Source of the DNA: the human T2T-CHM13v2.0 reference genome, Homo sapiens | DNA: 64,000 bases | Direction: 5' to 3' (one strand) | NCBI RefSeq assembly: GCF_009914755.1 | Contig: NC_060937.1 | In this document: piece after piece, positions 18,061 to 33,269 of the stretch | Layout of the letters: each line of letters begins with the position of its first letter | How positions within the stretch are numbered: position 1 is the first letter of the stretch | Program-made: the position numbers and the translations under genes | Notes under the pieces: generated by a model | Told to the model about the DNA's origin: nothing | What the model saw: only the letters and a program-made list of their open reading frames with translations | Database searches by the model: none

Positions 18061-18139
18061 CAAGGATGCACTAAGCTGATGTCCCAAAAAAAAAAAAAAT
18101 TAAAAGTGACCATATAGTTATAAATCTAATGGAAGTTAC

Positions 18140-18569
18140 TGTCAGGCCTCTGAGCCCAAGCCAAGCCATCACATTCCCTGTGACTTGCACGTATACACCC
18201 AGATGGCCTGAAGTAACTGAAGAATCACAAAAGAAGTGAAAAGGCCCTGCCCCGCCTTAACTGATGACATTCCACCATTGTGATTTGTTCCTGCCCCACC
18301 TTAACTGAGTGATTAACCCTGTGAATTTCCTTCTCCTGGCTCAGAAGCTCCCACACTGAGCACCTTGTGACCCCCGCCCCTGCCCACCAGAGAACAACCC
18401 CCTTTGTAATTTTCCATTACCTTCCCAAATCCTATAAAACGACCCCACCCCTATCTCCCTTCACTGACTCTCTTTTTGGACTCAGCCCGCCTGCACCCAA
18501 GTGAAATAAACAGCCATGTTGCTCACACAAAGCCTGTTTGGTGGTCTCTTCACAAGGACACGCGTGAAA
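18140..18569 (+). promoter_or_regulatory. LTR7-family 5' LTR of provirus A
   Basis: TATAAAA at 18433-18439, AATAAA in R. U3 carries a ccaccattgtgatttgttcctgcccc block that provirus B lacks. Confidence 0.95.
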
Positions 18570-18571
18570 TT

Positions 18572-18589
18572 TGGTGACGTGACTTGGAT
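18572..18589 (+). other. Primer-binding site for tRNA-His (2 mismatches)
   Basis: tggtgacgtgacttggat vs TGGTGCCGTGACTCGGAT. Confidence 0.9.
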
Positions 18590-19288
18590 CGGGGGACCTC
18601 CCTTGGGAGATCAATCTCATGTCCTCCTGTTCTTTGCTCCATGAGAAATATCCACCTACGACCTCAGGTCTTCAGACTGACCAGCCCAAGAACCATCTCA
18701 CCAATTTCAAATCCGGTAGGCAGCCTCTTTTTACTCTTTTCTCCAACCTCCCTCCCTATTCCTCAACCTCTTTCTCCTTTCATTCTTGGTGCCACACTTC
18801 AATCTCTTCCTTCTCTTAATTTCAATTCCCTTCATTTTCTGGTAGAGACAAAGGAGACACATTTTATCCGTGGACCCAAAACTCCAGCACCGGTCACGGA
18901 CTGGGAAGGCAGCCTTCCCTTGGTGTTTAATCATTTCAGGGACGCCTCTCTGATTATTCACCCACGTTTCAAAGGTGTCAGACCACACAAGGAGGCCTGC
19001 CTTGGTCCTTCAGCCTTAGCGGCAAGTCCCGCTTTTCTGGGGGAGGGACAAGTACTCCAACCCCTTCTCTCTGTGTCTCTACCCCTTCTCTGATCTTCTG
19101 GGGCAGGGGCAAGAACCCCTCAACCCCTTCTCCTTCACCGTTAGCGGCAAGTCCCGCTTTTCTAGGGGGCAAGAACCCCCAATCCCTTATTTCCGTGCCC
19201 CAACCCTTTCTCTGCTTTTCTGGAGGGCAAGAAATCCCCACCCCTTCTCCGTGTCTCTACTCTTTTCTCTGGGCTTGCCTCCTTCACT

Positions 19289-20500
19289 ATGGGAAACCTT
19301 CCACCCTCCATTCCTCCTCCTTCTCCCTTAGCCTGTATTCTTAAGAACTTAAAACCTCTTCAACTCACACCTGACCTAAAATCTAAGCATCTTATTTTCT
19401 TCTGCAATGCTGCTTGACCCCAATACAAACTCGACAGTAGTTCCAAATAGCCAAAAAACGGCACTTTCAATGTTTCCATCCTACAAGATCTAAATAATTC
19501 TTGTCGTAAAATAGGCAAATGATCTGAGGTGCCTGACGTCCAGGCATTCTTTTACACATCAGTACCTTCCTAGTCTCTGTGCCCAGTGCAACTCGTCCCA
19601 AGTCTTCCTTCTTTCCCTCCCACCTGTCCCCTCAGTCCCAATCCCAAGCGTCGCTGAGTCTTTCTAATCTTCCTTTTCTACAGACCCATCTGACCTCTCG
19701 CCTCCTCGCCAGGCCAAGCTAGTTCCCAATTCTTCCTCAGCCTCCGCTCCTCCACCCTATAATCTTTTTATCGCCTCCCCTCCTCACACCTGGTCTGGCT
19801 TACAGTTTCGTTCTGTGACTAGCCCTCCACCACCTGCCCAGCAATTTACTCTTAAAAAGGTTGCTGGAGCCAAAGGCATAGTCAAGATTAATGCTCCTTT
19901 TTCTTTATCCCAAATCAGAAGTGTTTAGGCTCTTTTTCATCAAATATAAAAACCCAGCCCAGTTCATGGCTTGTTCGGCAGCAACCCTGAGACACTTTAC
20001 AGCCCTAGACCATAAGAGGTCGAAAGGCCATCTTATTCTCAATATACATTTTATTACCCAATCTGCTCCCCACATTAAACTCCAAAAATTGGAATCTGGC
20101 CCTCAAACCCCACAACAGGACTTAATTAACCTCACCTTCAAGGTGTACAATAATAAAAAAAAAGTTGCAATTCCTTGCCTCCACTGAGAGACAAACCCCA
20201 GCCACATCTCCAGCACACAAGAACTTCCAAACGCCTGAACCGCAGCAGCCAGGCATTCCTCCAGAACCTCCTCCCCCAGGAGCTTGCTACACATGCCGGA
20301 AATCTGGCCACTGGGCCAAGGAATGCCCACAGCCCGGGATTCCTCCTAAGCCACGTCCCATCTGTGTGGGACCCCGTTGAAAATCGGATTGTTCAACTCA
20401 CCTGGCAGCCACTCCCAAAGCCCCTGGAACTCTGGCCCAAGGCTCTCTGACTGACTCCTTCCCAGATCTTCTCCACTGAATGGCTGAAGACTGATGCTGC
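19289..20500 (+). pseudogene. gag: HERV-H gag remnant (provirus A)
   Basis: ATG GGA AAC CTT CCA CCC (MGNLPP) start. CX2CX4HX4C zinc knuckle [14 protein letters not shown] at 20285-20326. Multiple stops and frameshifts. Confidence 0.85.
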
Positions 20501-20559
20501 CCGATCGCCTTGGAAGCCCCATAGACCATCACGGACGCTGAGCTTAGGTAACTCTCACA

Positions 20560-20860
20560 GTGGAGGGTAAGTCCGTTCTCTTCTTAATCAATATGGAGGC
20601 TACCCACTCCACATTACCTTATTTTCAAGGGCCTGTTTCCCTTGCCTCCATAACTGTTGTGGGTATTGACGGCCAGGCTTCTAAACCTCTTAAAACTCCC
20701 CAACTCTGGTGCCAACTTAGACAATACTCTTTTAAGCACTCTTTTTTAGTTATCCCCACCTGCCCAGTTCCCTTATTAGGCCAAGATATTTTAACCAAAT
20801 TATCTGCTTCCCTGACTATTCCTGGACTACAGCTGCATCTCATTGCTGCCTTCTTCCCAA
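20560..20860 (+). pseudogene. pro: HERV-H protease remnant (provirus A)
   Basis: FLINMEATHS at the DTGA position, VVGIDG flap, PLLGQDIL motif. Confidence 0.85.
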
Positions 20861-20899
20861 TCCAAAGCCTCCTTTGCATCCTCCCTTTGTATCTCCCCA

Positions 20900-22660
20900 C
20901 CTTAACCCACAAGTATAAGATACCTCTACTCCCTCCTTGGTGACCGATCATGCACCCCTTACCATCTCATTAAAACCTAATCACCCTTACCCCACTCAAT
21001 GTCAAGATCCCATCTAACAGCACGCTTTAAAAGGATTAAAGCCTGTTATCACTCACCTGCTACAGCATGGCCTTTTAAAGCCTATAAACTCTCCTTACAA
21101 TTCCCCCATTTTACCTGTCCTAAAACCAGACAAGCCTTATAAGTTAGTTCAGGATCTATGCCTTATCAACCAAATTGTTTTGCCTATCCACCCAGTGGTG
21201 CCAAACCCATATACTCTCCTATCCTCAATACCTCCCTCCACAACCTGTTATTCTGTTCTAGATCTCAAACATGGTTTCTTTACTATTCCTTTGCACCCCT
21301 CATCCCAGCCTCTCTTCGCTTTCACTTGGACTGACCCTGACACCCATTAGGCTCAGCAAATTACCTGGGCTGTACTGCTGCAAAGCTTCACAGACAGCCC
21401 CCATTACTTCAGTCAAGCCCAAATTTCATCCTCATCTGTTACCTATCTCAGCATAATTCTCATAAAAACACACGTGCTCTCCCTGCTGATCGTGTCTGAT
21501 TAATCTCCCAAACCTCAATCCCTTACAAAACAACTCCTTTCCTTCCTAGGCATAGTTAGTGTGGTCAGAATTCTTACACAAGAGCCAGGACCACACCCTG
21601 TAGCCTTTCTTTCCAAACAACTTGACCTTACTGTTTTAGCCTAGCCCTCACGTCTGCGTGCAGTGGCTGCCACTGCTTTAATACTTTTAGAAGCCCTCAA
21701 AATCACAAACTATGCTCAACTCACTCTGTACAGTTCTCATAACTTCCAAAATCTATTTTCTTCCTCATACCTGACGCATATACTTTCTGCTGTACTCACT
21801 CTTTGTTAAGTCCCACAATTACCATTGTTCCTGGCCTGGACTTCAATCCAGCCTCCCACATTATTCCTGATACCACACCTGACACCCATGACTGTATCTC
21901 TCTGATCCACCTGATATTCACCCCATTTCCCCATATTTCCTTCTTTCCTGTTCCTCACCCTGATCACGCTTGATTTATTGATGGCATTTCCACCAGGCCT
22001 AATCGCCACACAACAGCAAAGGCAGGTTATGCTATAGTACGAGCCACTAGCCCACCTCTTAGAACCTTTCGTTTCCTTTCCATCGTAGAAATCTATCCTC
22101 AAGGAAATAACTTCTCAGTGTTCCATCTGCTATTCTACTACTCCTCATGGATTATTCTGGCCCCCTCCCTTCCCTACACATCAAGCTCGAGGATTTGCCC
22201 CCACCCAGGACTGGCAAATTAGCTTTACTCAACATGCCCCGAGTCAGGAAACTAAAATACCTCTTAGTCTAAATAGACACTTTCATTGAATAAGTAAAGG
22301 CCTTTCCTACAGGGTCTGAGAAGGCCACCTCAGTCATTTCTTCCCTTCTGTCAGACATAATTCCTCAGTTTAGCCTTCCCACCTCTATACAGTCTGATAA
22401 CAGACCAGCCTTTATTAGTCAAATCAGCCAAGCAGTTTTTCAGGCTGTTAGTATTCAGTGAAGCCTTTATATCCCTTATGGTCCTCCATCTTCAGGAAAA
22501 GTAGAATGGACTAAAGGTCTTTCAAAAACACACCTCACCAAGCTCAGCCACCAACTTAAAAAGGACTGGACAATACTTTTACCACTTTCCCTTCTCAGAA
22601 GTCAGACCTGTCCTCAGAATGCTACAGGGTACAGCCTATTTGAGCTCCTTTTTATTAGGC
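20900..22660 (+). pseudogene. pol: HERV-H pol remnant (RT/RNaseH/IN) with deletions (provirus A)
   Basis: SPYNSPILPV and LDLKHGFF RT motifs, QSDN integrase motif. I did not find YxDD. Many stops. Confidence 0.85.
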
Positions 22661-22899
22661 CCCAGTCTCATTCCAGACACCAGACCAACTTAGACTATGC
22701 CCCCCAAAAAAACTTGTCATCCCTACTATTTTCTGTCTATTCATACTCCTATTCTCCATTCTCAACTACTCATACATGCCCTGCTCTTGTTTACACTGCC
22801 GGTTTACACTGTTTCTCCAAGCCATCACAGCTGATATCTCCTGGTGCTATCCCCAAACTGCCACTCTTAACTCTTGAAGTAAATACATAATCTTTGCTG

Positions 22900-23125
22900 G
22901 CAGGACTATGCTGAATCTCCTTAGGCACTCTCTAATCAGATGTTCTAGGTCCTCCCAATTCTTAGACCTTTTATACCTGTTTTTCTCCTTCTCTTATTCC
23001 ATTTAGTTTTTCAATTCATACAAAACCATATCCAGGCCATCACCAATAATTCTAAATGACAAATGTTTCTTCTAACAACCCCACAATATCGCCCCTTACC
23101 ACAAAATCTTCCTTCAGCTTAATCT
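22900..23125 (+). pseudogene. env: HERV-H env TM C-terminal remnant (provirus A)
   Basis: Encodes an FIQNHIQAITNNS..QMFLLTTPQY-like tail. Most of env is deleted. Confidence 0.7.
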
Positions 23126-23284
23126 CTCCCACTCTAGGTTCCCACGCTGCCCCTAATCCCGCTTGAAGCAGCCCTGAGAAACATCGTCCATTCTCTCTCC
23201 ATACCATCCCCCAGAAATTTTCGGCGCCCCACCACTTCAACACTATTTTGTTTTATTTTTCTTATTAATATAAGAAGGCAGGAA

Positions 23285-23720
23285 TGTCAGGCCTCTGAGC
23301 CCAAGCCAAGCCATTGCATCCCCTGTGACTTGCACGTATATATGCCCAGATGGCCTGAAGTAACTGAAGAATCACAAAAGAAATGAAAAGGCCCTGCCCC
23401 GCCTTAACTGATGACATTCCACCATTGTGATTTGTTCCTGCCCCACCTTAACTGAGTGATTAACCCTGTGAATTTCCTTCTCCTGGCTCAGAAGCTCCCA
23501 CACTGAGCACCTTGTGACCCCCGCCCCTGCCCACCAGAGAACAACCCCCTTTGACTGTAGTTTTCCATTACCTTCCCAAATCCTATAAAATGGCCTCACC
23601 CCTATCTCCCTTCACTGACTCTCTTTTTGGACTCAGCCCGCCTGCACCCAGGTGAAATAAACAGCCATGTTGCTCACACAAAGCCTGTTTGGTGGTCTCT
23701 TCACACGGACGTGCATGAAA
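23285..23720 (+). promoter_or_regulatory. LTR7-family 3' LTR of provirus A (poly(A) signal AATAAA 23656-23661)
   Basis: Preceded by PPT aagaaggcaggaa (23272-23284). About 15 substitutions and 2 indels vs the 5' LTR, counted by eye. Confidence 0.95.
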
Positions 23721-24683
23721 ATTACCATTAGTAATGCCACTGATTGAATGGTTTTTAAAACATAACCCTGGGTTACACATTCCCTGTGTACTAAATCCAG
23801 TCAGCGACAATGACCCCTGCTTCTCCTATGGTCTGCTCTAATCTGAGTTTCAAAGCTCTATTGATCTTCACATTCATACTAGAATTCTTTCTTAGCAGGC
23901 CAGAGCTCGAACTAGGATCCTTTCTTCCCCAGATTCTCCCACCAACTCTACCTTTTACAATTTTCTTTTAAAAATCCAAAAAAGAATTGATATGAGTTAA
24001 ATGTGTCAAATTTAGTAAAACTTTAAGCACTATGTCCAGAGCATTGCACACACACACACATATATATATGGCTTGTTAAATTTAAAATGAAGCATGTAAA
24101 GTTTTTTAAAGTAAAAACAGAATTTGGAAAGAATGAAAATTCTGCAATTATTAAGTTTTCTGAAGAAAATATTTGAAATCTGCTGGTGTTTGCTCAAGAA
24201 ACATTTGTTAAATATCTACAAATTATATACCTATGTCACACCATGCATTTGCTCTGCATAGAAATCTGCAGATTACCTAATTCTTAAACTGTTCTTGCTG
24301 TCATGTAAATAGTTATTTACAGCCTTTCTAAGCTGAGTAGTGTTCTAGGTACTGGCCACTGGGCAATGCACAAAACAAATGCAAATGTCTGCTCTCCAGC
24401 AGTTTAAATTCTAGTGAAGTGATGGAATATAGAGCAGGGGAAAGGACAGTAAGGGTCCCAGATAATAAACAAATACATGAAAAACATGTAGTTTGCAAGA
24501 GGATGATAAGTGGTAGGGAACATTGGAAAGATAGATGCAATTTTATAATGAATAGTCAGGAAAGTGTCAATGAGTTTCACTGTCTAATGAATGAAACAGA
24601 ATTTTTTTTTTTTTTCGAAACAGACTTCTAAAAGAATAAGTGCAATAAGTTTTCAAAAGTGCAGGATGACATCCCAGTTACCT

Positions 24684-25509
24684 TGTATTAGCTTGCTAGG
24701 GCTGTGATGTAGTTTGGGTATTTGTCCCTGCCCAAATCTCATGTTGAATTGTAATCTCCCGTGCTGGAGATGGAGCTTAGTGGGAAGTGTTTGGATCATG
24801 GAGGCGGATCCCTCATGGCTTGGTGCTGTCTTCCTTATAGTGAGTTCTCATGAGATGTGGTAATTTAAGAGTGTGTGGCACCTTTCCCTTCACTCTCTCC
24901 CCTTCTTCTGCTTTCCACATGTGATGTGCCTGTTCCCCCTTTGCCTTCTGCCATGAATGAAAGCTCTCTGAGGCTTCGTCAGAAGCTGAGCAGATGCTAG
25001 CACCATGCTTCCTGTAAAGCCTGCAGAACGTGAGCCAATTAAACCTCTTTTCTTCATAAATTATGCACTCCCAGGTATTTCTTTACAGCAATGCAAAAGC
25101 GACCTAACACAGGCTTCCATAACAAAATATCACAGATGGGATGACTTAAACATCAGGAGTTTCTTTTCTTACAATTTTGGAAGCTGGAAGTCCAAGATCA
25201 AGGTACTGGCAGGGTTGATTTCTTCTAAGGCCACTGTCTTTGGCTTGCCTATGGCTGCCTTCTCTTCGTGTGCTCACATGGTCTTTCCTTTGCGCTAATG
25301 CATCTCTGGTATCTTTCTGTGTATTTAACTTTATTAATCTGATAAGGGCTGGTCAGATTACACTAGGCCCATACTAAAGGCCTCCTTTTCACTTAACTGT
25401 CTCTTTAAAGGCCCTGTTTCCAAATATAGTCACAGTCCAAGGTACTAGAGGTAAGAACTTCAACATGCGACTTATGGGCCGGGTTGTGGGGAGAGCACAG
25501 TCCATAACA
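24684..25509 (-). mobile_element. MLT1A/B-like solo LTR split by an MST LTR
   Basis: tgtattagcttgctagggctg [MST] ...ccataacaaaatatcacagatggg...cacagtccataaca. Confidence 0.8.
24705..25111 (+). mobile_element. MSTA/MSTB solo LTR
   Basis: TGATGTAGTTTGG...cccaaatctcatgttgaattgtaat...CTAACACA. TSD ggctg (24700-24704) / ggctt (25112-25116). Confidence 0.9.
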
Positions 25510-26629
25510 TCTCTCTTAAAATTTGAGAGAGATAGCTGGGAATTAAAACCCTGATTTTATCTTCTTGCAGCCCTATTCTCTGAAGCATAGTGAATTATGT
25601 ATCATAATTCCATGCTGTATGCTAAATTGCAGATAATATCTGGTTTTCAGAACTGTTTATTGTGAAGCCCTGAAGTTGCAGCTGCCCCAGGAGGAATGTG
25701 GCTTGACATATATTCCCAGAGAGGTTTGCTAACAAACATAATTCATGCTTGGTTAAGGGAAGGAGAGGTAGTTTCCCTCCCAGTCCCTGACCAACAGAGC
25801 ACACCCAGTGCATGGAGTGGTCTGACAGCTGGCCTGATAGTCCAAGACCTCTCAATAGGACTGTTTGGCTATGAATGACAGTGCTGCCCGCTTTCAGCCT
25901 TTCAAATCAAATTATGATGACTGATGGGACCCCATTAAGTCTTGTGGGTCTTTTTGTTGACTCTGATTTCCAAAACAATTAATATTAAATTAGAGGCCAG
26001 GTAGAATGTGAAGCGGGAAGAGCAAGTCGTAACAAAGAGTTTCAACAAACTCTTTTTGCATGCATTTCATATATGTTCAGCAGGCACAAAACTATCGTCT
26101 TTTCAAAGATGACAGAGGCAGTGACATTAACGAAGCGTGAAAGTTTTAAACTACAACGAGCAGATTGGGAACTGCAAGGGTTTTAGTGTAGATAAAACAT
26201 AGTCAGGGGCACAAATCAAGAGATTAAGGAGGAAAATAGGTGTTGAGACCATTGAAGGTTCTTTCAGGCTTACTAAGAATTTGTTTCCTATTTGGTAGTC
26301 ATAGAATGTCAATTTAACTGAAATGCTTTACACTAAAGAATTTGATGATTAAATGCGTGTTTTTAAAAATGAATTCCATTGGCCAAATGACAGATGACTT
26401 TAAGTGCTTACTTCTTTACTGCCCAGAGATCTTTCAAGATCCCATTAAACCAAAGTACTAAAACTCAAAATATTTGTTTCATTGTGCCCTTTAGAAATGT
26501 GAACTTACAAAAGATTCAGTGCAGAAAACAAGAAAATAAACATGAAACATTAGTTCAAATGAGGTGTGCTTATCACATCAGGGCACTGGGTCTTAAACCT
26601 TGGTGTGCCTCCAATCTAGGGTAAATGAA

Positions 26630-27120
26630 GAGAGAGATTTTTCCATGGGTGTATCTGGAGATGTACGCATGTTAAAGCATAACAAAATTTGGGATTAATC
26701 AATTGTTCATCAGTGGGAGAATGGATAAATATTTGTGAAATGTTCATACACTTGAATCAGAGGTATAGAAATGTACAGAGAAGAGCTAAAAACACAGCGT
26801 GGAATAAAAAATTAAGTTGCAAGAATAAGTTGCTCTGTATTGACTGACAGCATTTATATAACTTTGTAAAAACATAATGAAACACATTACTTATAGAAAC
26901 AGAATTTCAGTACAAACATGGTCTAATGGAACACTCATCAAATTCATCACATTGGTTCACTCAGAGTGGGAAGGTAGGGAAATGAACTTTAAGATAGGAA
27001 AAAAAGGGATTCTATTTTATTTCTAAACTATTGCAAAAATGACAAATATAAATATAGTTAATCCTAGGTCATGAGTATGCACTTCTGTAAATCTCTGTAC
27101 TTTTCTAAAATTGTTTTCAC
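26630..27120 (+). mobile_element. Old L1 (L1ME-like) 3' fragment
   Basis: tgttcatcagtgggagaatggataaat...tgttcatacac resembles old L1 3' region. Boundaries approximate. Confidence 0.5.
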
Positions 27121-27146
27121 TTTTTCAAATCATCTTTTAAAGAGAC

Positions 27147-27599
27147 TTTCATGCTCGTGCATGTGAAGAGACCACCAAACAGGCTTTGTGTGAGCAACAT
27201 GGCTGTTTATTTCACCTGGGTGCAGGCAGGCTGAGTCCAAAAAGAGAGTCAGCGAAGGGAGATAGGGGTGGGGCTGTTTTATAGGATTTGGGTAGGTAAA
27301 GGAAAATTACAGTCAAAGGGGGTTTGTTCTTTGGCGGGCAGGAGTGGGGGTCCCAAGGTGCTCAGTGGGGGTGTTTTTTGAGCCAGGATGAGCCAGGAAA
27401 AGGACTTTCACAAGGTAATGTCATCACTTAAGGCAAGGACCGGCCATTTACACTTCTTTTGTGGTGGAATGTCATCAGTTAAGGTGGGGCAGGGCATATT
27501 CACTTCTTTTGTGATTCTTCAGTTACTTCAGGCCATCTGGGCTTATATGTGCAAGTCACAGGGGATGCAATGGCTTGGCTTGGGCTCAGAGGCCTGACA
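27147..27599 (-). promoter_or_regulatory. LTR7 3' LTR of provirus B (poly(A) signal 27206-27211)
   Basis: PPT immediately upstream on the minus strand. Two ACAAAAGAAGTG copies in U3. Confidence 0.95.
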
Positions 27600-28219
27600 T
27601 TCCTGCCTTCTTATATTAATAAGAAAAATAAAACAAAATAGTGTTGAAGTGTTGGGGCAGTGAAAATTTTTGGGGGGTGATATGGAGAGAGAATGGGTGA
27701 TGTTTCTCAGGGCTGCTTCAAGCGGGATTAGGGGCAGCGTGGGAACCTAGAGTGGGAGAGATTAAGCTGAAGGGAGGTCTTGTGGTAAGGGGTGATATTG
27801 TGGGGTTGTTAGAAGAAACATTTGTTGTGTAGAATTATTGGTTATGGCCTGGATATGGTTTTGGATGAATTGAGAAACTAAATGGAATAACAGAAGGAGA
27901 AAAACAGGTATAAAAGTTCTAAGAATTGGGACAACTCAGGATATCTGATTAGAGAGTGCCTAAGGAGATTCAGCATAGTCCTGCCAGCAAAGATTATGTA
28001 TTTACTTCAAGAGTTAAGAGTGGCAGTTTGGGGATAGCACGAGGAGATATCAGCTGTGATGGCTTGGAGAAACTGTAAACCGGCAGTGTAAACAAGAGCA
28101 GGGCATGTATGAGTAGTTGAGAACGGTGAATAGGAGTATGACTAGACAGAAGATAATAGGGATGACAAGTTTTTTGGGGCACAGTCTAAGTTGGTCTGGT
28201 GTCTGGAATGAGACTGGGG

Positions 28220-30010
28220 CCTAATAAAAAGGAGCGTCTATACAGGAGCTCAAATGGGCAGTACCCTGTAGCATTCCGAGGACAGGCCTGAATTCTGAGA
28301 AGGGAAAGTGGTTAAAGTATTGTCCAGTCCTTTTTAAGTTGGTGGCTGAGCTTGGTGAGGTGTGTTTTTAAAAGATCTTTAGTCCATTCTACTTTTCTTG
28401 AAGATGGAGGACCGTAAGGGATATAAAGGTTTCACTGAATACTAACAGCCTGAAAAACTGCTTGGCTGATTTGACTAATAAAGGCTGGTCTGTTATAAGA
28501 GTGTGTTGAGGTGGGAAGGCTAAACTGAGGAATTATGTCTGACAGAAAGGAAGAAATGACTGAGGTGGCCTTCTCAGACCCTGTGGGAAAGGCCTCTACC
28601 TATCCAGTGAAATTATCTACCTAGACTAAGAGGTATTTTAGTTATCTGACTCAGGACATGTTGAGTAAAGCTAATTTGCCAGTCCTGGGTGGGGGCAAAT
28701 CCTCGAGCTTGATGTGTAGGGAAGGGAGGGGGCCTGAATAATCCTTGAGTAGTAGTAGAATAGCAGATGGAACACTGAGAAGTTATTTCCTTGAGGATAG
28801 ATTTCCACGATGGAAAGGAAATGAGAGGTTCTAAGAGGTGGGCTAGTGGCTTGTACTATAGCATAACCTGCCTTTGCTGGTGTGTGGCGATTAGGCCTGG
28901 TGGAACCGCCATCAATAAATCAAGTGTGATCAGAGTGAGGAACACGAAAGAAGGAAATTTGGGGAAATGGGGTGAATGTCAGGTGGATCGGAGAGATACA
29001 GTCCTGGGTGTCAGGTGTGGTATCAGGAATAATGTGGGAGGCTGGATTGAAGTCTGGGCCAGGAACAATGGAATTGAGGGAGACTCAACAAAGAGTGAGT
29101 ACAGCTGAAGGAGCCGGGGAGCAGAAAGTATATGCATCAGGTATGAGGAAGAAAATAGATTTTGGAAGTTATGAGAACTGTAGAGAGTGAGTTGAGCATA
29201 GTTTGTGATTTTGAGGGCCTCTAAAAGTATTAATGCAGCGGCAGCCACTGCACGCAGACATGAGGGCTAGGCTAAAACAGTAGGTCAAGTTGTTTGGACA
29301 GAAAGGCTACAGGGTGTGGTCCTGGCTCTTGTGTAAGAATTCTGACCGCACTAACCATGCCTAGGAAGGAAAGGAGTTGTTGTTTTGTAGAAGGTGCTGG
29401 GGTTTGAGAGATTAGTCGGACACGATCAGCAGGGAGAGCACGTGTGTTTTTATGAGAATTATGCCGAGATAGGTAACAGATGAGGAAGAAATTTGGGCTT
29501 GATTGAAGTAATGGGGGCTGTCTGTGAAGCTTTGCAGCAGTACAGCCTAGGTATTTTGCTGAGCTTGATGGGTGTCAGGGTCAGTCTAAGTGAAAGTGAA
29601 GAGAGGCTGGGATTAAGGGTGCAAAGGAATAGTAAAGAAAGCATGTTTGAGATCCAGAACAGAATAATGGGTTATAGAGGCAGGTATTGAGGATAGGAGA
29701 ATATATGGGTTTGGCACCACTGGGTGGATAGGCAAAACAATTTGGTTAATAAGGCGCAGATCCTCAACTAACTTGTAAGGCTTGTCTGGTTTTAGGACAG
29801 GTAAAATGGGGGAATTGTAAGGAGAGTTTATAGGCTTTAAAAGGCCGTGCTGTAGCAGGCGAGTGATAACAGGCTTTAATCTTTTTAAAGCGTGCTGCGG
29901 GATGGGATATTGGGGTTGAGTGGCGTAAGGGTGATTAGGTTTTAATGAGATGATAAGGGGTGCATGATCAGTCACCAAGGAGGGAGTAGAGGTATTTTAT
30001 ACTTGCGGGT
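28220..30010 (-). pseudogene. pol: HERV-H pol remnant (provirus B)
   Basis: ORF 29613-29978: QYPI...NSPYNSPILPVLKPDKPYKLVEDLRLINQ...VLDLKHAFFTIPL. Disrupted downstream. Confidence 0.9.
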
Positions 30011-30079
30011 TAAGTTTGGGGGATACAAGAGGAGGATGCAAAGGAGGCTTTGGATTGGGAAGAAGGGCAGCAATGAGAT

Positions 30080-30356
30080 GCAGCTGTAGTCCAGGAATAG
30101 TCAGGGAAGCAGACAATTTAGTTAAAGTGTCTCAGCCTAATAAGGGAACTGGGCAGGTGGGGATAACTAAAAAGGAGTGCTTAAAAGAGTATTGTCTAAG
30201 TTGGCCCCAGAGTTGGGGAGTTTTAAGAGGTTTAGAAGCCTGGCCATCAATACCGACAACAGCTGTGGAGGCAAGGGAAAAAGGCCCTTGAAAAGAAGGT
30301 AATGTGGAGTGGGTAGCCTCCGTATTGATTAAGAAGGGGACGGGCTTACCTTCCAC
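30080..30356 (-). pseudogene. pro: HERV-H protease remnant (provirus B)
   Basis: FLINTEATHS at the DTGA position. Stop codon after PLLG. Confidence 0.85.
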
Positions 30357-30399
30357 TGTGAGAGTTACCTGAAGCTGGGCATCCGTGATGGTCTAGGGG

Positions 30400-31625
30400 G
30401 CTTCCGAGGCAATCAGGCAGCGTCAGTCTTCAGCCGCTAAGCCAAGAAGATCTGGGAAGCAGTCAGAGAGCCTTGGGCCAGAGTTCCAGGGGCTCTGGGA
30501 GTGGCTGCCAGGTGAGTTGGACAGTCCGATTTCCAGTGGGGTCCGGCACAGATGGGACGTGGCTTAGGAGGAATCCTGGGCTGCAGGCATTCCTTGGCCT
30601 GGTGGCCACGTTTCTGGCACTTGTAGCAAGCTCCTGGGGGAGGAGGTTCTGGAGGAACACCTGGCCGCTGCGGTTCAGGCGTTTGGAAGTTCTTGTGTGC
30701 TGGAGATGCGGCTGGGGTTTGTCTCACAGTGGGGACAAGGAATTGCAACTTTTTTCTATTATTGTACACCTTGAAGGCGAGGTTAGTTAAATCCTGTTGT
30801 GGGGTTTGAGGGCCGGAATTTAATTTTTGGAGTTTTATTTAATGTGGGGAGCAGATTGGATAATAAAATGTATATTGAGAATAAGACAGCCTTTTGACCT
30901 TTTAGGGTCTAGGGCTGTAAAGTGTCTCAGGGTTGCTGCCAAACGATCCATGAACTGGGCTGGATTTTTATATTTGATGAAAAAGAGCCTAAACGGTTCT
31001 GATTTGGGATAAAGAAAAAGGAGCATTAACCTTGACTATGCCTTTGGCTCCAGCCACCTTTTTAAGAGTAAATTGCTGGGCAGGTGGGGGAGGGCTAGTC
31101 ACAGAACGAAACTGTAAGCCCGACCAGGTGTGAGGAGGGGAGGCGATAAAAAGATTATAGGGTGGAGGAGCGGAGGCTGAGGAAGAATTGGGACCTAGCT
31201 CGGGCTGGCGAGGAGGGGAGAGGTCAGATAGGTCTGTAGAAAAGGAAGATTAGAAAGACTCAGCGACGCTTGGGATTGGGACTGAGGGGACAGGTGGGAG
31301 GGAAAGAAGATTTGGGATGAGTTGCACTGGGCACAGAGACTAGGAAGGGACTGATGTGTAAAAGAATGCCTGGACGTCAGGCACCTCAGATCATTTGCCT
31401 ATTTTATGACAAGAATTATTTAGATCTTGCAGGATGGAGAAATTCAAAGTTCCATTTTCTGGCTATTTGGAACTACTGTTGAGTTTGTATTGGGGTCAAG
31501 CGGCATTGCAGAAGAAAATAAGGCATTTAGGTTTTAGGTCAGGTGTGAGTTGAAGAGGTTTTAAGTTTTTGAGAACACAGGCCAAGGGAGTAGAAGGAGG
31601 AATGGAGGGTGGAAGTTTGCCTATA
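30400..31625 (-). pseudogene. gag: HERV-H gag remnant (provirus B)
   Basis: Zinc knuckle CYKCQKRGHQAKEC at 30587-30628. The start codon position reads ATA where provirus A has ATG. Confidence 0.85.
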
Positions 31626-31719
31626 GTGGAGGAAGCAAGCCTCGAGAAAAGAGAGAGTAGAGAAACGGAGGGAAGGGGTTCAGGGATTCTTACCTTTCAG
31701 AAAAGTGAGAAAAGGGGTT

Positions 31720-31865
31720 GGGGTGCAGATATAAGAGTTCGGGGCACGGAAATAAGGGATGGGGTGCAGAAATAAGGGGTCGGGGCACGGAAATAAGGGG
31801 TCGGGGCATGGAAATAAAGGATTGGGGCATGGAGATACTAGGTTGGGGTGCGGAAATAAGGTATT
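31720..31865. repeat. Minisatellite of 7 x ~21 bp (GGGGYRYRGAAATAAGGGRTY-like) in the HERV-H leader
   Basis: Units start at 31720, 31741, 31761, 31782, 31803, 31824 and 31845. Confidence 0.9.
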
Positions 31866-32252
31866 GGACATTCTTGCCCCCTAGAAAAGCGGGACTTGCC
31901 GCTAAGGGTGAAAGAGAAGGGGTTGAGGGGTACTTGCCCCTCCCTCAGAAAAGCGGGACTTGCCGCTAAAGGTGAAGGACCAAGGCAGGCGTCCCTGCGT
32001 GGTCTGACACCCGTGAAACGTGGGTGTATAATCAGAGAGGTGTCCCTGCAATGATTAAACACCAAGGGAAGGCTGCCTTCCCAGTCCGTGACCGGCACCG
32101 GAGTTTTGGGTCCACGGATAAAACGTGTCTCCTTTGTCTCTCCCAGAAAATGAAAGGAATTGAAATTAAGAGAAGGGAGAGATTGAAGAGTGGAAAGGAG
32201 AAAGTGGTTGAGGGACAGTGAGAGAGGCTGGAGAAGAGAGTAAGAAGAGGCC

Positions 32253-32261
32253 GCTTACCTG
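32253..32261 (-). promoter_or_regulatory. HERV-H major splice donor CAG|GTAAGC (provirus B)
   Basis: Plus strand reads gcttacctg, ~130 nt downstream of the PBS. The equivalent site in provirus A is CCG|GTAGGC (~18714-18722). Confidence 0.75.
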
Positions 32262-32384
32262 ATTTAAAATTGATGAGATGTTCCTTGGGCTGGTCAGTCT
32301 GAGGACCTGAGGCCATAGGTGGATCTTTCTCACGGAGCAAAGAACAGGAGTACAGGGGATTGATCTCCCAAGGGAGGTCCCCAG

Positions 32385-32402
32385 ATCCAAGTCACGGCAT
32401 CA
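32385..32402 (-). other. Primer-binding site for tRNA-His (2 mismatches)
   Basis: Minus strand tgatgccgtgacttggat. Confidence 0.9.
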
Positions 32403-32404
32403 AA

Positions 32405-32854
32405 TTTCATGTGCGTCGGCGTGAAGAGACCACCAAACAGGCTTTGTGTGAGCAACATGGCTGTTTATTTCACCTGGGTGCAGGCGGGCTGAGTCCAAAG
32501 AGAGAGTCAGCGAAGGGAGATAAGGGTGGCACTGTTTTATAGGTTTTGGGAAGGTAAAGGAAAATTACAGTCAAAGGGGTTTTGTTCTCTGGCGGGCAGG
32601 AGTGGGGGTCGCAAGGTGCTCAGTGGGGGTGCTTTCTGAGCCAGGATGAGCCAGGAAAAGGACTTTCACAAGGTAATGTCGTCACTTAAGGCAAGGACCG
32701 GCTATTTACACTTTTGTGGTGGAATGTCATCAGTTAAGGTGGGGCAGGGCATATTCACTTCTTTTGTGATTCTTCAGTTACTTCAGGCCATCTGGGCGTA
32801 TACGTGCAAGTCACAGGGGATGTGATGGCTTGGCTTGGGCTCAGAGGCCTGACA
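32405..32854 (-). promoter_or_regulatory. LTR7 5' LTR of provirus B (candidate pluripotency promoter/enhancer)
   Basis: TATAAAA on the minus strand at ~32535-32541. U3 has the duplicated CACAAAAG block. 11 CpGs. Confidence 0.95.
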
Positions 32855-33269
32855 GAGACTTTTTTCCTCACCTGTAATCCCTTATAATTATATTATACTT
32901 TATACTTTGCCTGCACTTAATATATTTATTGCCTCATAACCTGCTTATGATTTAGATGGGAAAAAGTAAAGGTCTTTATTCTTAACTGAGTCTCAAAAAG
33001 GTGAAGTGCCTTACCCCAACATTTCCTTATAATTATTAAAAAATGAGATGGAAGTTCAGTCCCAGCATTTCTGACACTCAGGCAAGTGGTTCTCATTCTC
33101 CTGCAAGGGCTCTGTCTGCACTGTGAGAACTTCTACGGAACTCACCAGAATTGGCAAAAAACACTTAAATTTCAATGTGGCCCTTCTCTTTTCCCATCTC
33201 TACAATTTATTTTGTTCTAAATATAGTTGAGGGCCTGGGGCTCATGAATTTAGGTGATGTTTTATGATG

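What the first reader, a model, noticed from the sequence alone, without database searches (positions are those of the whole stretch)
18140..32854. Two independent HERV-H proviruses in convergent orientation forming a ~14.7 kb inverted repeat
Seen: two complete LTR-int-LTR HERV-H copies (5581 and 5708 bp) point toward each other across a 3426-bp spacer and are colinear along almost their whole length. Different TSDs (gttac/attac vs gagac/gagac) and different U3 architectures show two separate integrations, not a local duplication. Known: HERV-H/LTR7 loci are strong promoters/enhancers in human pluripotent cells, and highly transcribed copies can create TAD boundaries. Inference: two full proviruses within 3.4 kb is an unusual density, suggesting an integration hotspot or retention. 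The pair could act as a convergent transcription unit, with polymerase collision or interference in the spacer and possibly a double boundary.
Basis: partly seen in the sequence, partly recalled or inferred. Interest (0 to 1): 0.8.

Follow-up and report, generated by a model that had tools for sequence, protein, structure and literature searches.

The report
Two neighbouring, catalogued HERV-H proviruses
These are two dead, separately inserted copies of the human endogenous retrovirus HERV-H lying tail to tail; both are already catalogued, and no joint function has been shown for the pair.

Summary
Provirus A (18140-23720, + strand, 5581 bp) and provirus B (27147-32854, - strand, 5708 bp) face each other across 3426 bp. 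Each has its own 5-bp target-site duplication.

They are independent insertions. Their LTRs are of different types. A is as similar to unlinked B-like copies (91.9-92.3%) as to B (92.0%). Both are the common env-less form and are full of stop codons.

Both are already in print: LTR7u2 and LTR7up1 'full' elements in Carter 2022, and HERVH_13q31.3a and b in a 2025 colorectal-cancer study.

Published H1 stem-cell calls for B show NANOG/KLF4 binding and active chromatin marks but no RNA or GRO-seq signal. The cancer study says its 17 chosen loci were not generally co-expressed. So convergent transcription and a double boundary are unsupported.

Among 454 catalogued HERV-H elements I counted 8 pairs less than 5 kb apart, against 0.36 expected at random. 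Five of the 8 are tail to tail, including a second LTR7u2/LTR7up1 pair at 1q41. That count is post hoc and covers 461 of 1,537 entries.

The parts
18135..18139 (+). Left target-site duplication of provirus A (gttac)
   Evidence: Read. It matches 23721-23725 (attac) at 4 of 5 positions.
18140..18569 (+). Provirus A 5' LTR, 430 bp. Published type is LTR7u2 (LTR7Y in the standard library). TATA-like box present; AATAAA at 18505.
   Evidence: Subfamily from Carter supplementary file 2 and Table 2 of PMC12145686.
18572..18589 (+). Primer-binding-site-like 18-mer directly after A's 5' LTR
   Evidence: Read. Its resemblance to the tRNA-His type that names the family is recalled, not tested.
18570..23284 (+). 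Provirus A interior (4715 bp): decayed gag, protease and pol remnants, no env match
   Evidence: Pfam hits in order: Gag_p30, zf-CCHC, RVP, RVT_1, rve. 53 stops in frame 1. 92-94% identical to 39 other scored genomic copies.
23285..23720 (+). Provirus A 3' LTR, 436 bp; AATAAA at 23656. RefSeq enhancer 23031-23600 overlaps it.
   Evidence: hub table. It differs from the 5' LTR at 14 of 430 aligned sites (K2P 0.034).
23721..27146 (.). 3426-bp spacer of host DNA. Its ends carry one TSD copy of each provirus (23721-23725 and 27142-27146).
   Evidence: Unique in the genome except for one dispersed repeat. It shares no similarity with the spacers of two other HERV-H pairs. GC 0.377.
24704..25112 (.). 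Old dispersed repeat of about 410 bp inside the spacer; family not identified
   Evidence: 80-84% identical to the scored copies; 13,133 first-look candidates.
27147..27599 (-). Provirus B 3' LTR, 453 bp, LTR7up1 type. Carries the complete 8-bp AAAAGAAG motif at 27453-27460 and AATAAA at 27206. RefSeq enhancers 26829-27579 and 27580-28329 overlap or abut it.
   Evidence: Motif definition. Hub table.
27600..32404 (-). Provirus B interior (4805 bp): decayed gag and protease remnants, no env match. Includes a 21-nt tandem array at 31712-31861 and a PBS-like 18-mer at 32385-32402.
   Evidence: Pfam Gag_p30, zf-CCHC, RVP. TRF. 93-96% identical to 39 other scored copies.
32405..32854 (-). Provirus B 5' LTR, 450 bp, LTR7up1 type. 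Only 5 of the 8 bp of the AAAAGAAG motif remain (32711-32715). AATAAA at 32464. RefSeq enhancer 32258-32998 overlaps it.
   Evidence: It differs from the 3' LTR at 24 of 450 aligned sites (K2P 0.056). Published H1 calls.
32855..32859 (+). Outer target-site duplication of provirus B (gagac on the + strand)
   Evidence: Read. Identical to 27142-27146.

Best explanation
Two separate germline insertions of the non-autonomous, env-less form of HERV-H (about 5.7 kb) lie tail to tail in a gene-poor stretch of 13q31.3. A carries LTR7u2 LTRs and B carries LTR7up1 LTRs. These are two subfamilies that the literature dates to the same recent wave in the ancestors of African great apes. Both copies are dead as viruses, and what remains active is their LTRs. 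In H1 stem cells, B binds pluripotency factors and carries active chromatin marks but is not scored as transcribed. Both loci are reported as re-expressed in colorectal tumours and absent from normal tissues. Shown: the identity, the independence of the two insertions, the decay, and the published chromatin and expression calls. Inferred: their closeness reflects a family-wide tendency of HERV-H copies to lie within a few kb of one another. That tendency could come from integration aimed at open or active chromatin around an existing copy, or from fine-scale retention. I see no evidence for a function peculiar to this pair.
For: Anatomy and TSDs.

Different LTR types. Published assignments are hg38 chr13:90839564-90845143 (+) LTR7u2 full and 90848574-90854277 (C) LTR7up1 full. 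Their order, strands, sizes and 3430-bp gap match the window at a constant offset of about 797.42 kb.

No local exchange: overall identity is A-B 91.98%, against 91.86% and 92.28% for A versus two unlinked B-like copies. In the 300-bp windows with enough aligned columns, A-B stayed within about 4 points of these and never exceeded 96.4%. Each provirus has closer relatives elsewhere, 94% for A and 96% for B, and neither is among the other's 40 scored hits.

Decay.

Published H1 calls for B: RNA 0, GRO 0, chimeric transcript 0, KAP1 0, NANOG 1, OCT4 0, MED1 0, KLF4 1, FOXA1 1, FOXP1 1, SMAD1 0, SOX2 0, TCF4 1, ZNF534 1, H3K4me3 1, H3K27ac 1, H3K9me3 0.

Subfamily ages and expression niches. Named tumour-associated loci 13q31.3a and b.

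Family-wide clustering: 8 pairs under 5 kb among 454 elements, against 0.36 (uniform) or 0.72-1.25 (jitter) expected. A second independent tail-to-tail LTR7u2/LTR7up1 pair at 1q41 has a 1443-bp gap and its own perfect TSDs.
Against: A's TSD has one mismatch.

No ape genomes were available, so presence, absence and order of the two insertions are untested. LTR divergences (14 of 430 against 24 of 450) do not order them (Fisher p = 0.14).

A is missing from the published H1 call table, so nothing locus-specific is known for A in stem cells. Naive and embryo data were not seen for either locus.

Both loci are transcribed in some tumours, and Carter reports both subfamilies transcribed in the epiblast. 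Simultaneous convergent transcription therefore cannot be excluded.

The clustering count is post hoc. It covers 461 of the 1,537 interior-containing catalogue entries (3 of 12 subfamilies, and only the 'full' class for 7u2).
Confidence: 0.85

Rival explanations
1. The pair works as a unit. The two 5' LTRs fire toward each other, polymerases collide or interfere in the spacer, and the locus forms a double chromatin-domain boundary in pluripotent cells.
For: The orientation is convergent. B has NANOG, KLF4, H3K4me3 and H3K27ac in H1. RefSeq enhancers overlap three of the four LTRs (hub table). Both subfamilies are reported as transcribed in the epiblast.
Against: B is RNA 0 and GRO 0 in H1. 7u2 LTRs show 0% NANOG binding and weak H1 expression. 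Boundary formation is reported for the 50 most transcribed loci and depends on high transcription. Each 3' LTR keeps its AATAAA, and the spacer holds three more on each strand. No CTCF-like consensus lies in or between the proviruses (the motif is recalled and this is a weak test). The tumour study reports no general co-expression among its 17 loci.
Confidence: 0.06
2. The closeness is pure coincidence: two insertions that happened to fall 3.4 kb apart under random placement, with no targeting and no retention effect.
For: For the whole family, uniform placement of 811-1241 copies predicts 0.7-2.5 pairs within 3.4-5 kb somewhere in the genome. One such pair alone would therefore not be remarkable.
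Against: In the catalogued subset, 8 pairs under 5 kb are seen where 0.36 are expected, and 0 of 2000 simulations reach 8 even when regional density is preserved. On those numbers only about 1 in 6 to 1 in 20 such pairs would be chance.
Confidence: 0.1
3. The two copies arose from one provirus by a local inverted duplication, forming a palindrome.
For: The arms are colinear over almost their whole length.
Against: The TSDs differ. The LTR subfamilies differ, with block-level U3 differences. The similarity does not extend into the flanks beyond 7 bp. A-B identity equals that between A and unlinked copies.
Confidence: 0.01
4. A read-through transcript spanning both copies folds into a very long RNA hairpin (arms of about 5.5 kb, about 92% complementary). 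This could feed RNA editing, innate double-stranded-RNA sensing or small-RNA production.
For: The inverted geometry and arm identity allow it. Both loci are transcribed in some tumours.
Against: No transcript spanning the spacer is annotated (hub table). Polyadenylation signals are intact in both 3' LTRs and present in the spacer. My literature searches found no report of it.
Confidence: 0.03

Closest known systems
HERVH_13q31.3a and HERVH_13q31.3b (Table 2 of PMC12145686); the same loci appear as LTR7u2 'full' and LTR7up1 'full' in Carter et al. 2022 supplementary file 2
   Same: They are the same two loci. The hg38 coordinates, strands, sizes and gap match the window at a constant offset.
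   Different: Nothing differs in the objects themselves. The passages and section I read list them separately and do not comment on their tail-to-tail arrangement.
The 1q41 pair (1q41f LTR7u2 and 1q41g LTR7up1)
   Same: Same two subfamilies and the same order and orientation (7u2 on +, then 7up1 on -). Each copy has its own perfect 5-bp TSD, and both are in the same tumour-associated list.
   Different: The gap is 1443 bp rather than 3426 bp. The spacer is unrelated and the TSDs differ, so it is an independent occurrence and not a duplicate of this locus.
Highly transcribed HERV-H loci that form stem-cell-specific chromatin-domain boundaries (preprint 10.1101/485961)
   Same: Same family. B has the LTR type and several of the marks (NANOG, H3K4me3, H3K27ac) that are enriched at such loci.
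   Different: Boundary loci are the 50 most transcribed, whereas B is scored RNA 0 and GRO 0 in H1. I saw no insulation data for this locus.
Common deleted HERV-H form (compared with the 9.0-kb full-length consensus cited in PMC3253121)
   Same: Length is about 5.6-5.7 kb. Gag, protease and partial pol remnants are present in order, and there is no env match.
   Different: I did not align to the full-length reference, which was not available to type or fetch. The exact deletion boundaries are therefore not mapped.

Membership tests
HERV-H (LTR7-HERVH) provirus | Two LTR7-type LTRs in direct orientation flanking an interior, bounded by a 5-bp target-site duplication | tested here: met
   The TSD matches 4 of 5 for A and 5 of 5 for B.
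HERV-H (LTR7-HERVH) provirus | Interior homologous to HERVH-int, with gag, protease and pol remnants in retroviral order | tested here: met
   Pfam order: zf-CCHC and RVP score above the curated cut-offs in both copies, while Gag_p30, RVT_1 and rve score below them. 92-96% identity to the other genomic copies scored, with 1241 first-look candidates.
HERV-H (LTR7-HERVH) provirus | Primer-binding site complementary to tRNA-His | not tested
   An 18-mer sits in the right place after each 5' LTR. I had no tRNA-His sequence from a tool, so the resemblance is recalled only.
LTR7up1 subfamily (Carter 2022) | Block 2b as a tandem duplicate of block 2a, carrying the 8-bp AAAAGAAG insertion | tested here: met
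   B's 3' LTR has the whole motif. B's 5' LTR has the block, but 3 of the 8 bp are deleted (motif). Published assignment is 7up1.
LTR7u2 subfamily (Carter 2022) | Published per-locus assignment; a block 2b of the 7b/7c/7y kind rather than the 7up kind | tested here: inconclusive
   The published assignment is LTR7u2. A's U3 clearly differs from B's in that block. I did not align A to the subfamily consensus.
Boundary-forming, highly transcribed HERV-H | Among the 50 most transcribed HERV-H loci in hESC | tested here: not met
   B is RNA 0 and GRO top-seventh 0 in published H1 calls. A has no row in that table.
Local inverted duplication (palindrome) | Arms derived from each other: shared insertion site, flanks included, and arm identity above the family background | tested here: not met

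The most novel reading that the evidence does not exclude
This pair may be one instance of an undescribed rule of HERV-H genome layout. Copies lie within a few kb of each other about ten to twenty times more often than random or regionally jittered placement predicts. Neighbours are tail to tail or head to tail but almost never head to head. That pattern would fit new insertions being drawn to the chromatin just downstream of an already active provirus, or orientation-dependent loss afterwards. Counts: under 5 kb, 5 tail to tail, 2 tandem and 1 head to head, where the head-to-head case has zero gap and joins two truncated pieces. Within 300 kb, 14, 36 and 3 of 53. Beyond 300 kb, 90, 186 and 101 of 377. 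Pairs involving LTR7d1, which I added after first seeing the pattern, go the same way: 4, 18 and 1 of 23.
Probability: 0.3. Interest if true: 0.55.

Novelty: already known. Interest (0 to 1): 0.28.

Why it matters
The locus itself is ordinary. Both copies are catalogued, named, and already studied as stem-cell regulatory elements and tumour-associated transcripts. The useful result is negative: the inverted repeat is not a duplication, shows no sequence exchange between its arms, and has no evidence of acting as a convergent unit. The wider pattern could matter for how this retrovirus family chose or kept its insertion sites, and for reading clusters of HERV-H enhancers. That pattern is the excess of very close HERV-H pairs and the near absence of head-to-head neighbours. 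It needs a full, duplication-filtered count before it can be believed.

Tried and rejected
- **Local duplication:** rejected.
- **Gene conversion or homogenisation between the arms:** looked for with 300-bp windows against two unlinked relatives of each copy. No tract stands out, and the highest A-B window is 96.4%.
- **Past inversion by recombination between the arms:** rejected for this haplotype, because each provirus has matched LTR types and matched TSDs. The longest perfect A-B match is 98 bp.
- **A shared element in the spacers that might have attracted both insertions:** the spacers of 13q31.3, 1q41 and the chr1:72.8 Mb pair share nothing.
- **Ordering the two insertions by LTR divergence:** not resolvable, either here or at 1q41.
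- **Rfam over the whole window:** no match.
- **CTCF-like consensus:** one match in the window, far from the pair, about what chance gives.
- **Whole-interior translation for Pfam:** turned down because of stop codons. I scanned the 57 sense-strand stop-to-stop frames of 50 aa or more instead.
- **Papers not held:** Jern 2005 and the journal version of Zhang 2019. I used passages of the preprint.
- **Complete genome-wide pair count:** not possible. The own-genome pattern search lists only the first 100 of 811 places, and the catalogue has 24 parts against my look-up cap. I read parts 1, 2, 3, 6, 7 and 8.
Full report
**Observation.** A repeat scan finds two pairs of direct LTR repeats and a chain of inverted arms linking 18133-23723 to 27147-32861. 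The 25 inverted arm pairs shown (of 27 found) all lie inside the two elements, apart from a 7-bp overhang.

- The LTR-start 22-mer occurs four times in the 64-kb window and nowhere else: 18140 and 23285 on the + strand, 27599 and 32854 on the - strand. None is expected by chance.
- Provirus A is 18140-23720 (5581 bp, + strand). Provirus B is 27147-32854 (5708 bp, - strand). The spacer is 3426 bp.
- A reads rightward and B leftward, so they are tail to tail (convergent).
- TSDs, read directly: A is flanked by gttac and attac (4 of 5), and B by a perfect 5-bp repeat, gagac on the + strand.

**Independent insertions, not a duplication.** Four lines of evidence agree.

1. The TSDs differ between the two proviruses.
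2. The LTRs differ in kind. The two LTRs of A differ at 14 of 430 aligned sites and those of B at 24 of 450. Any A LTR differs from any B LTR at 12-13% of sites, plus block-level differences in U3.
3. Over a six-sequence alignment, A is 91.98% identical to B. It is 91.86% and 92.28% identical to two unlinked B-like copies from chromosomes 6 and X. In the 300-bp windows with enough aligned columns, A-B stayed within about 4 points of the A-versus-unlinked values, and no window exceeded 96.4%. The arms have therefore not been homogenised.
4. Each copy has closer relatives elsewhere in the same genome, up to 94% for A and 96% for B. Neither appears among the other's 40 scored hits out of 1241 first-look candidates.

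Each provirus has matched LTR types and matched TSDs. So this haplotype shows no sign of an inversion by recombination between the arms, and the longest perfect A-B match is only 98 bp.

**What the copies are.**

- Both interiors are wrecks. Frame 1 of A's interior has 53 stops. The longest sense open frames are 171 aa in A and 138 aa in B.
- I scanned 57 sense-strand open frames of 50 aa or more against Pfam. A gave Gag_p30, a zinc knuckle, retroviral protease, the start of reverse transcriptase and a piece of integrase core, in that order. B gave Gag_p30, zinc knuckle and protease.
- Only the zinc knuckle and protease scored above Pfam's curated cut-offs. No envelope family matched in either copy.
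- The distance from the integrase fragment to A's 3' LTR is about 0.8 kb, which leaves no room for env. This matches the common deleted form described against the 9.0-kb consensus, with six commonly deleted fragments including nearly all of env (passages of PMC3253121).
- I did not map the deletions against a reference.
- All four LTRs keep a TATA-like box and AATAAA.
- An 18-mer in the primer-binding position follows each 5' LTR. Its tRNA-His character is recalled, not tested.

**Already in print.** Carter et al. 2022 (eLife, PMC8912925) list two matching entries in supplementary file 2:

| Entry (hg38) | Strand | Class | Subfamily |
|---|---|---|---|
| chr13:90839564-90845143 | + | full | LTR7u2 |
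| chr13:90848574-90854277 | C | full | LTR7up1 |

Order, strands, sizes and the 3430-bp gap match the window at a constant offset of about 797.42 kb from the T2T coordinates given by the hub.

Their supplementary file 1 has a row for B only: 7up1; RNA 0, top-seventh GRO-seq 0, chimeric transcript 0, KAP1 0, NANOG 1, OCT4 0, MED1 0, KLF4 1, FOXA1 1, FOXP1 1, SMAD1 0, SOX2 0, TCF4 1, ZNF534 1, ZNF90 0, H3K4me1 0, H3K4me3 1, H3K9me3 0, H3K27ac 1. A has no row there.

From passages of the main text:

- 7up1/2, 7u2 and 7y are the youngest subfamilies, with proliferation placed at roughly 4-14 million years ago.
- 7up is the type robustly transcribed in primed stem cells.
- 7u2 is epiblast- and naive-biased, weakly expressed in H1, and none of its loci bind NANOG there.
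- An 8-bp AAAAGAAG insertion in 7up is needed for promoter activity in iPSC.

B's 3' LTR has that motif whole, but B's 5' LTR, the promoter, has lost 3 of the 8 bp. That fits the SOX2 0 and RNA 0 calls, but it is only a lead. Only 32% of 7up loci bind SOX2, and the paper says motif strength does not track binding.

**Tumour data.** A 2025 study of colorectal liver metastases (PMC12145686; passages, section 30 read whole) names the loci. HERVH_13q31.3a is 90,839,564-90,845,144 (LTR7Y/LTR7u2) and HERVH_13q31.3b is 90,848,573-90,854,278 (LTR7/LTR7up1). They are among 17 tumour-associated loci. Both are listed as never expressed in GTEx and as having poor prognostic value, and 13q31.3a was validated by RT-PCR. 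The same section says the 17 loci were not generally co-expressed, apart from one other pair of loci.

**The functional reading.** The convergent-unit idea needs both promoters active together.

- The only stem-cell calls I could see say B is not transcribed in H1, and that A's type is not bound or active there.
- Boundary formation is reported for the 50 most transcribed loci and is lost when transcription is silenced (preprint 10.1101/485961, passages; a review repeats 'about 50 loci').
- Both 3' LTRs keep their polyadenylation signal, and the spacer adds three more on each strand.
- A recalled CTCF-like consensus has no match in or between the copies (a weak test).
- RefSeq lists no transcript from either provirus. 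It does list enhancers over A's 3' LTR and both of B's LTRs (hub table), in keeping with LTR enhancer activity.

I therefore rate pair-specific function as unsupported but not excluded. Carter reports both subfamilies transcribed in the epiblast.

**Is the density unusual?** My first estimate suggested it was not. Uniform placement of 811-1241 copies gives 0.7-2.5 pairs within 3.4-5 kb genome-wide (811 is the count of a 40-mer pol motif with up to 3 mismatches). Other close pairs then kept turning up:

- A tandem pair on chromosome 1 (T2T 72.81-72.83 Mb, gap 2308 bp, each copy with both LTRs).
- A published pair 2.8 kb apart at 1p32.3.
- A second tail-to-tail LTR7u2/LTR7up1 pair at 1q41, with a 1443-bp gap, perfect and distinct TSDs and an unrelated spacer.

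I therefore transcribed coordinates from Carter's supplementary file 2: all 175 LTR7up1 full, 86 LTR7up1 truncated, 62 LTR7u2 full, 72 LTR7d1 full and 66 LTR7d1 truncated rows. That is 461 of the 1,537 interior-containing entries (totals from sheet 1). Merging overlaps and same-strand pieces up to 600 bp apart leaves 454 elements and 430 adjacent pairs.

| Gap | Observed pairs | Uniform null | Jitter null (±100 to ±500 kb) | Simulations reaching the observed count |
|---|---|---|---|---|
| under 5 kb | 8 | 0.36 | 0.72-1.25 | 0 of 2000 in every null |
| under 30 kb | 13 | 2.1 | 4.5-7.3 | 0 of 2000 (uniform); 2-38 of 2000 (jitter) |

**Orientation**.

| Gap | n | Tail to tail | Tandem | Head to head |
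|---|---|---|---|---|
| under 5 kb | 8 | 5 | 2 | 1 |
| under 300 kb | 53 | 14 | 36 | 3 |
| 300 kb or more | 377 | 90 | 186 | 101 |
| under 300 kb, pairs with a 7d1 member | 23 | 4 | 18 | 1 |

- The single head-to-head pair under 5 kb has zero gap and joins two truncated pieces.
- Within 300 kb, the probability of 3 or fewer head-to-head pairs at an expected 25% is 0.00025.
- Beyond 300 kb the ratio is the expected 1:2:1.
- I added 7d1 after first seeing the pattern, so those 23 pairs are a partial replication.
- An earlier variant used only 7up1 and 7u2 but added their solo LTRs (113 of the 117 7up1 solos; 48 of the 78 7u2 solos, namely the near-full-length ones listed in part 6). It gave a weaker skew: 10, 19 and 3 within 120 kb.

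**Cautions on this count.**

- The pattern was noticed after looking at the data.
- The count covers 3 of 12 subfamilies.
- Some tandem pairs are segmental duplicates or could be one element split by another insertion.
- At least one of the three head-to-head pairs looks like a copy pair of an inverted duplication (my inference from its symmetric arrangement).
- The hg38 chromosome lengths were recalled from memory.

Tail-to-tail pairs cannot be produced by fragmentation, and five of them under 5 kb is far above any null used. Targeting of new insertions to active chromatin is an established trait of murine gammaretroviruses (recalled, not tested for HERV-H). It is my inferred explanation, and nothing here shows it.

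**Literature coverage.** I found no paper discussing the adjacency or orientation of these two loci, or an orientation rule for HERV-H neighbours. Searches: HERVH with LINC00410, 0 papers. HERVH with convergent, inverted repeat or dsRNA: nothing relevant among the 10 listings shown. The locus name: 1 paper. Provirus pair-orientation terms: nothing relevant among the 12 listings shown. Subscription papers and unopened supplements may hold more.

**Verdict.** This is a correctly observed, already catalogued pair of independent, decayed HERV-H proviruses. The mechanistic speculation is unsupported by the data I could reach. The arrangement is one of a recurrent class of close HERV-H pairs whose excess and orientation bias deserve a proper genome-wide test.

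Noticed in passing
hg38 coordinates from Carter 2022 supplementary file 2: Among 454 merged LTR7up1, LTR7u2 and LTR7d1 elements, adjacent copies within 300 kb are mostly in the same orientation (36 of 53) and rarely head to head (3 of 53). Beyond 300 kb the ratio is the expected 1:2:1 (90:186:101). No explanation was tested. Ideas: insertion downstream of active copies, selection within long transcription units, or co-orientation with replication direction.
   Followed up: partly
L007-L009 (T2T chr1:221,206,086-221,219,117): A second tail-to-tail LTR7u2 (+) and LTR7up1 (-) pair at 1q41, with a 1443-bp gap. TSDs are cttat/cttat and cctat/cctat, and the spacer is unrelated to the 13q31.3 spacer. 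Both copies are also in the 17-locus colorectal cancer list (1q41f and g).
   Followed up: yes
L005-L006 (T2T chr1:72,813,952-72,827,111): A tandem pair of LTR7-type proviruses on the - strand with a 2308-bp gap. Each copy has both LTRs, and one has an internal deletion of about 0.6 kb relative to A.
   Followed up: partly
window 32711-32715 versus 27453-27460: B's 5' LTR has lost 3 of the 8 bp of the AAAAGAAG motif that Carter 2022 found necessary for LTR7up promoter activity. The 3' LTR keeps it whole. The published calls for this locus are SOX2 0 and RNA 0.
   Followed up: partly
Carter 2022 supplementary file 2, for example chr1:187765510-187770901, chr14:50893163-50896881 and chr9:21487323-21491080: Some loci are listed twice under different subfamilies (LTR7up1 and LTR7u2) with overlapping coordinates. 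These are proviruses whose two LTRs were assigned to different subfamilies. They might be recombinants, or products of recombination between neighbouring direct copies.
   Followed up: no
window 24704-25112: A dispersed repeat of about 410 bp in the spacer, 80-84% identical to the scored copies genome-wide (13,133 first-look candidates). Family not identified with the tools at hand.
   Followed up: no
window 31712-31861: A 21-nt tandem array (7.2 copies) in the leader/pre-gag region of B. A and B do not align cleanly over this stretch, which is where B is longer.
   Followed up: no
window 18085-18098: A run of 14 A just upstream of provirus A, about 40 bp before its TSD. It may be the tail of an older retroposed element.
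   Followed up: no
LTR alignment columns 30-33: window 18169-18172, 23314-23317, 27567-27570, 32822-32825: The two 5' LTRs (A and B) share CACA and the two 3' LTRs share TGCA at the same site. This is most simply parallel decay of one ancestral CpG in both directions, not exchange between the copies.
   Followed up: partly
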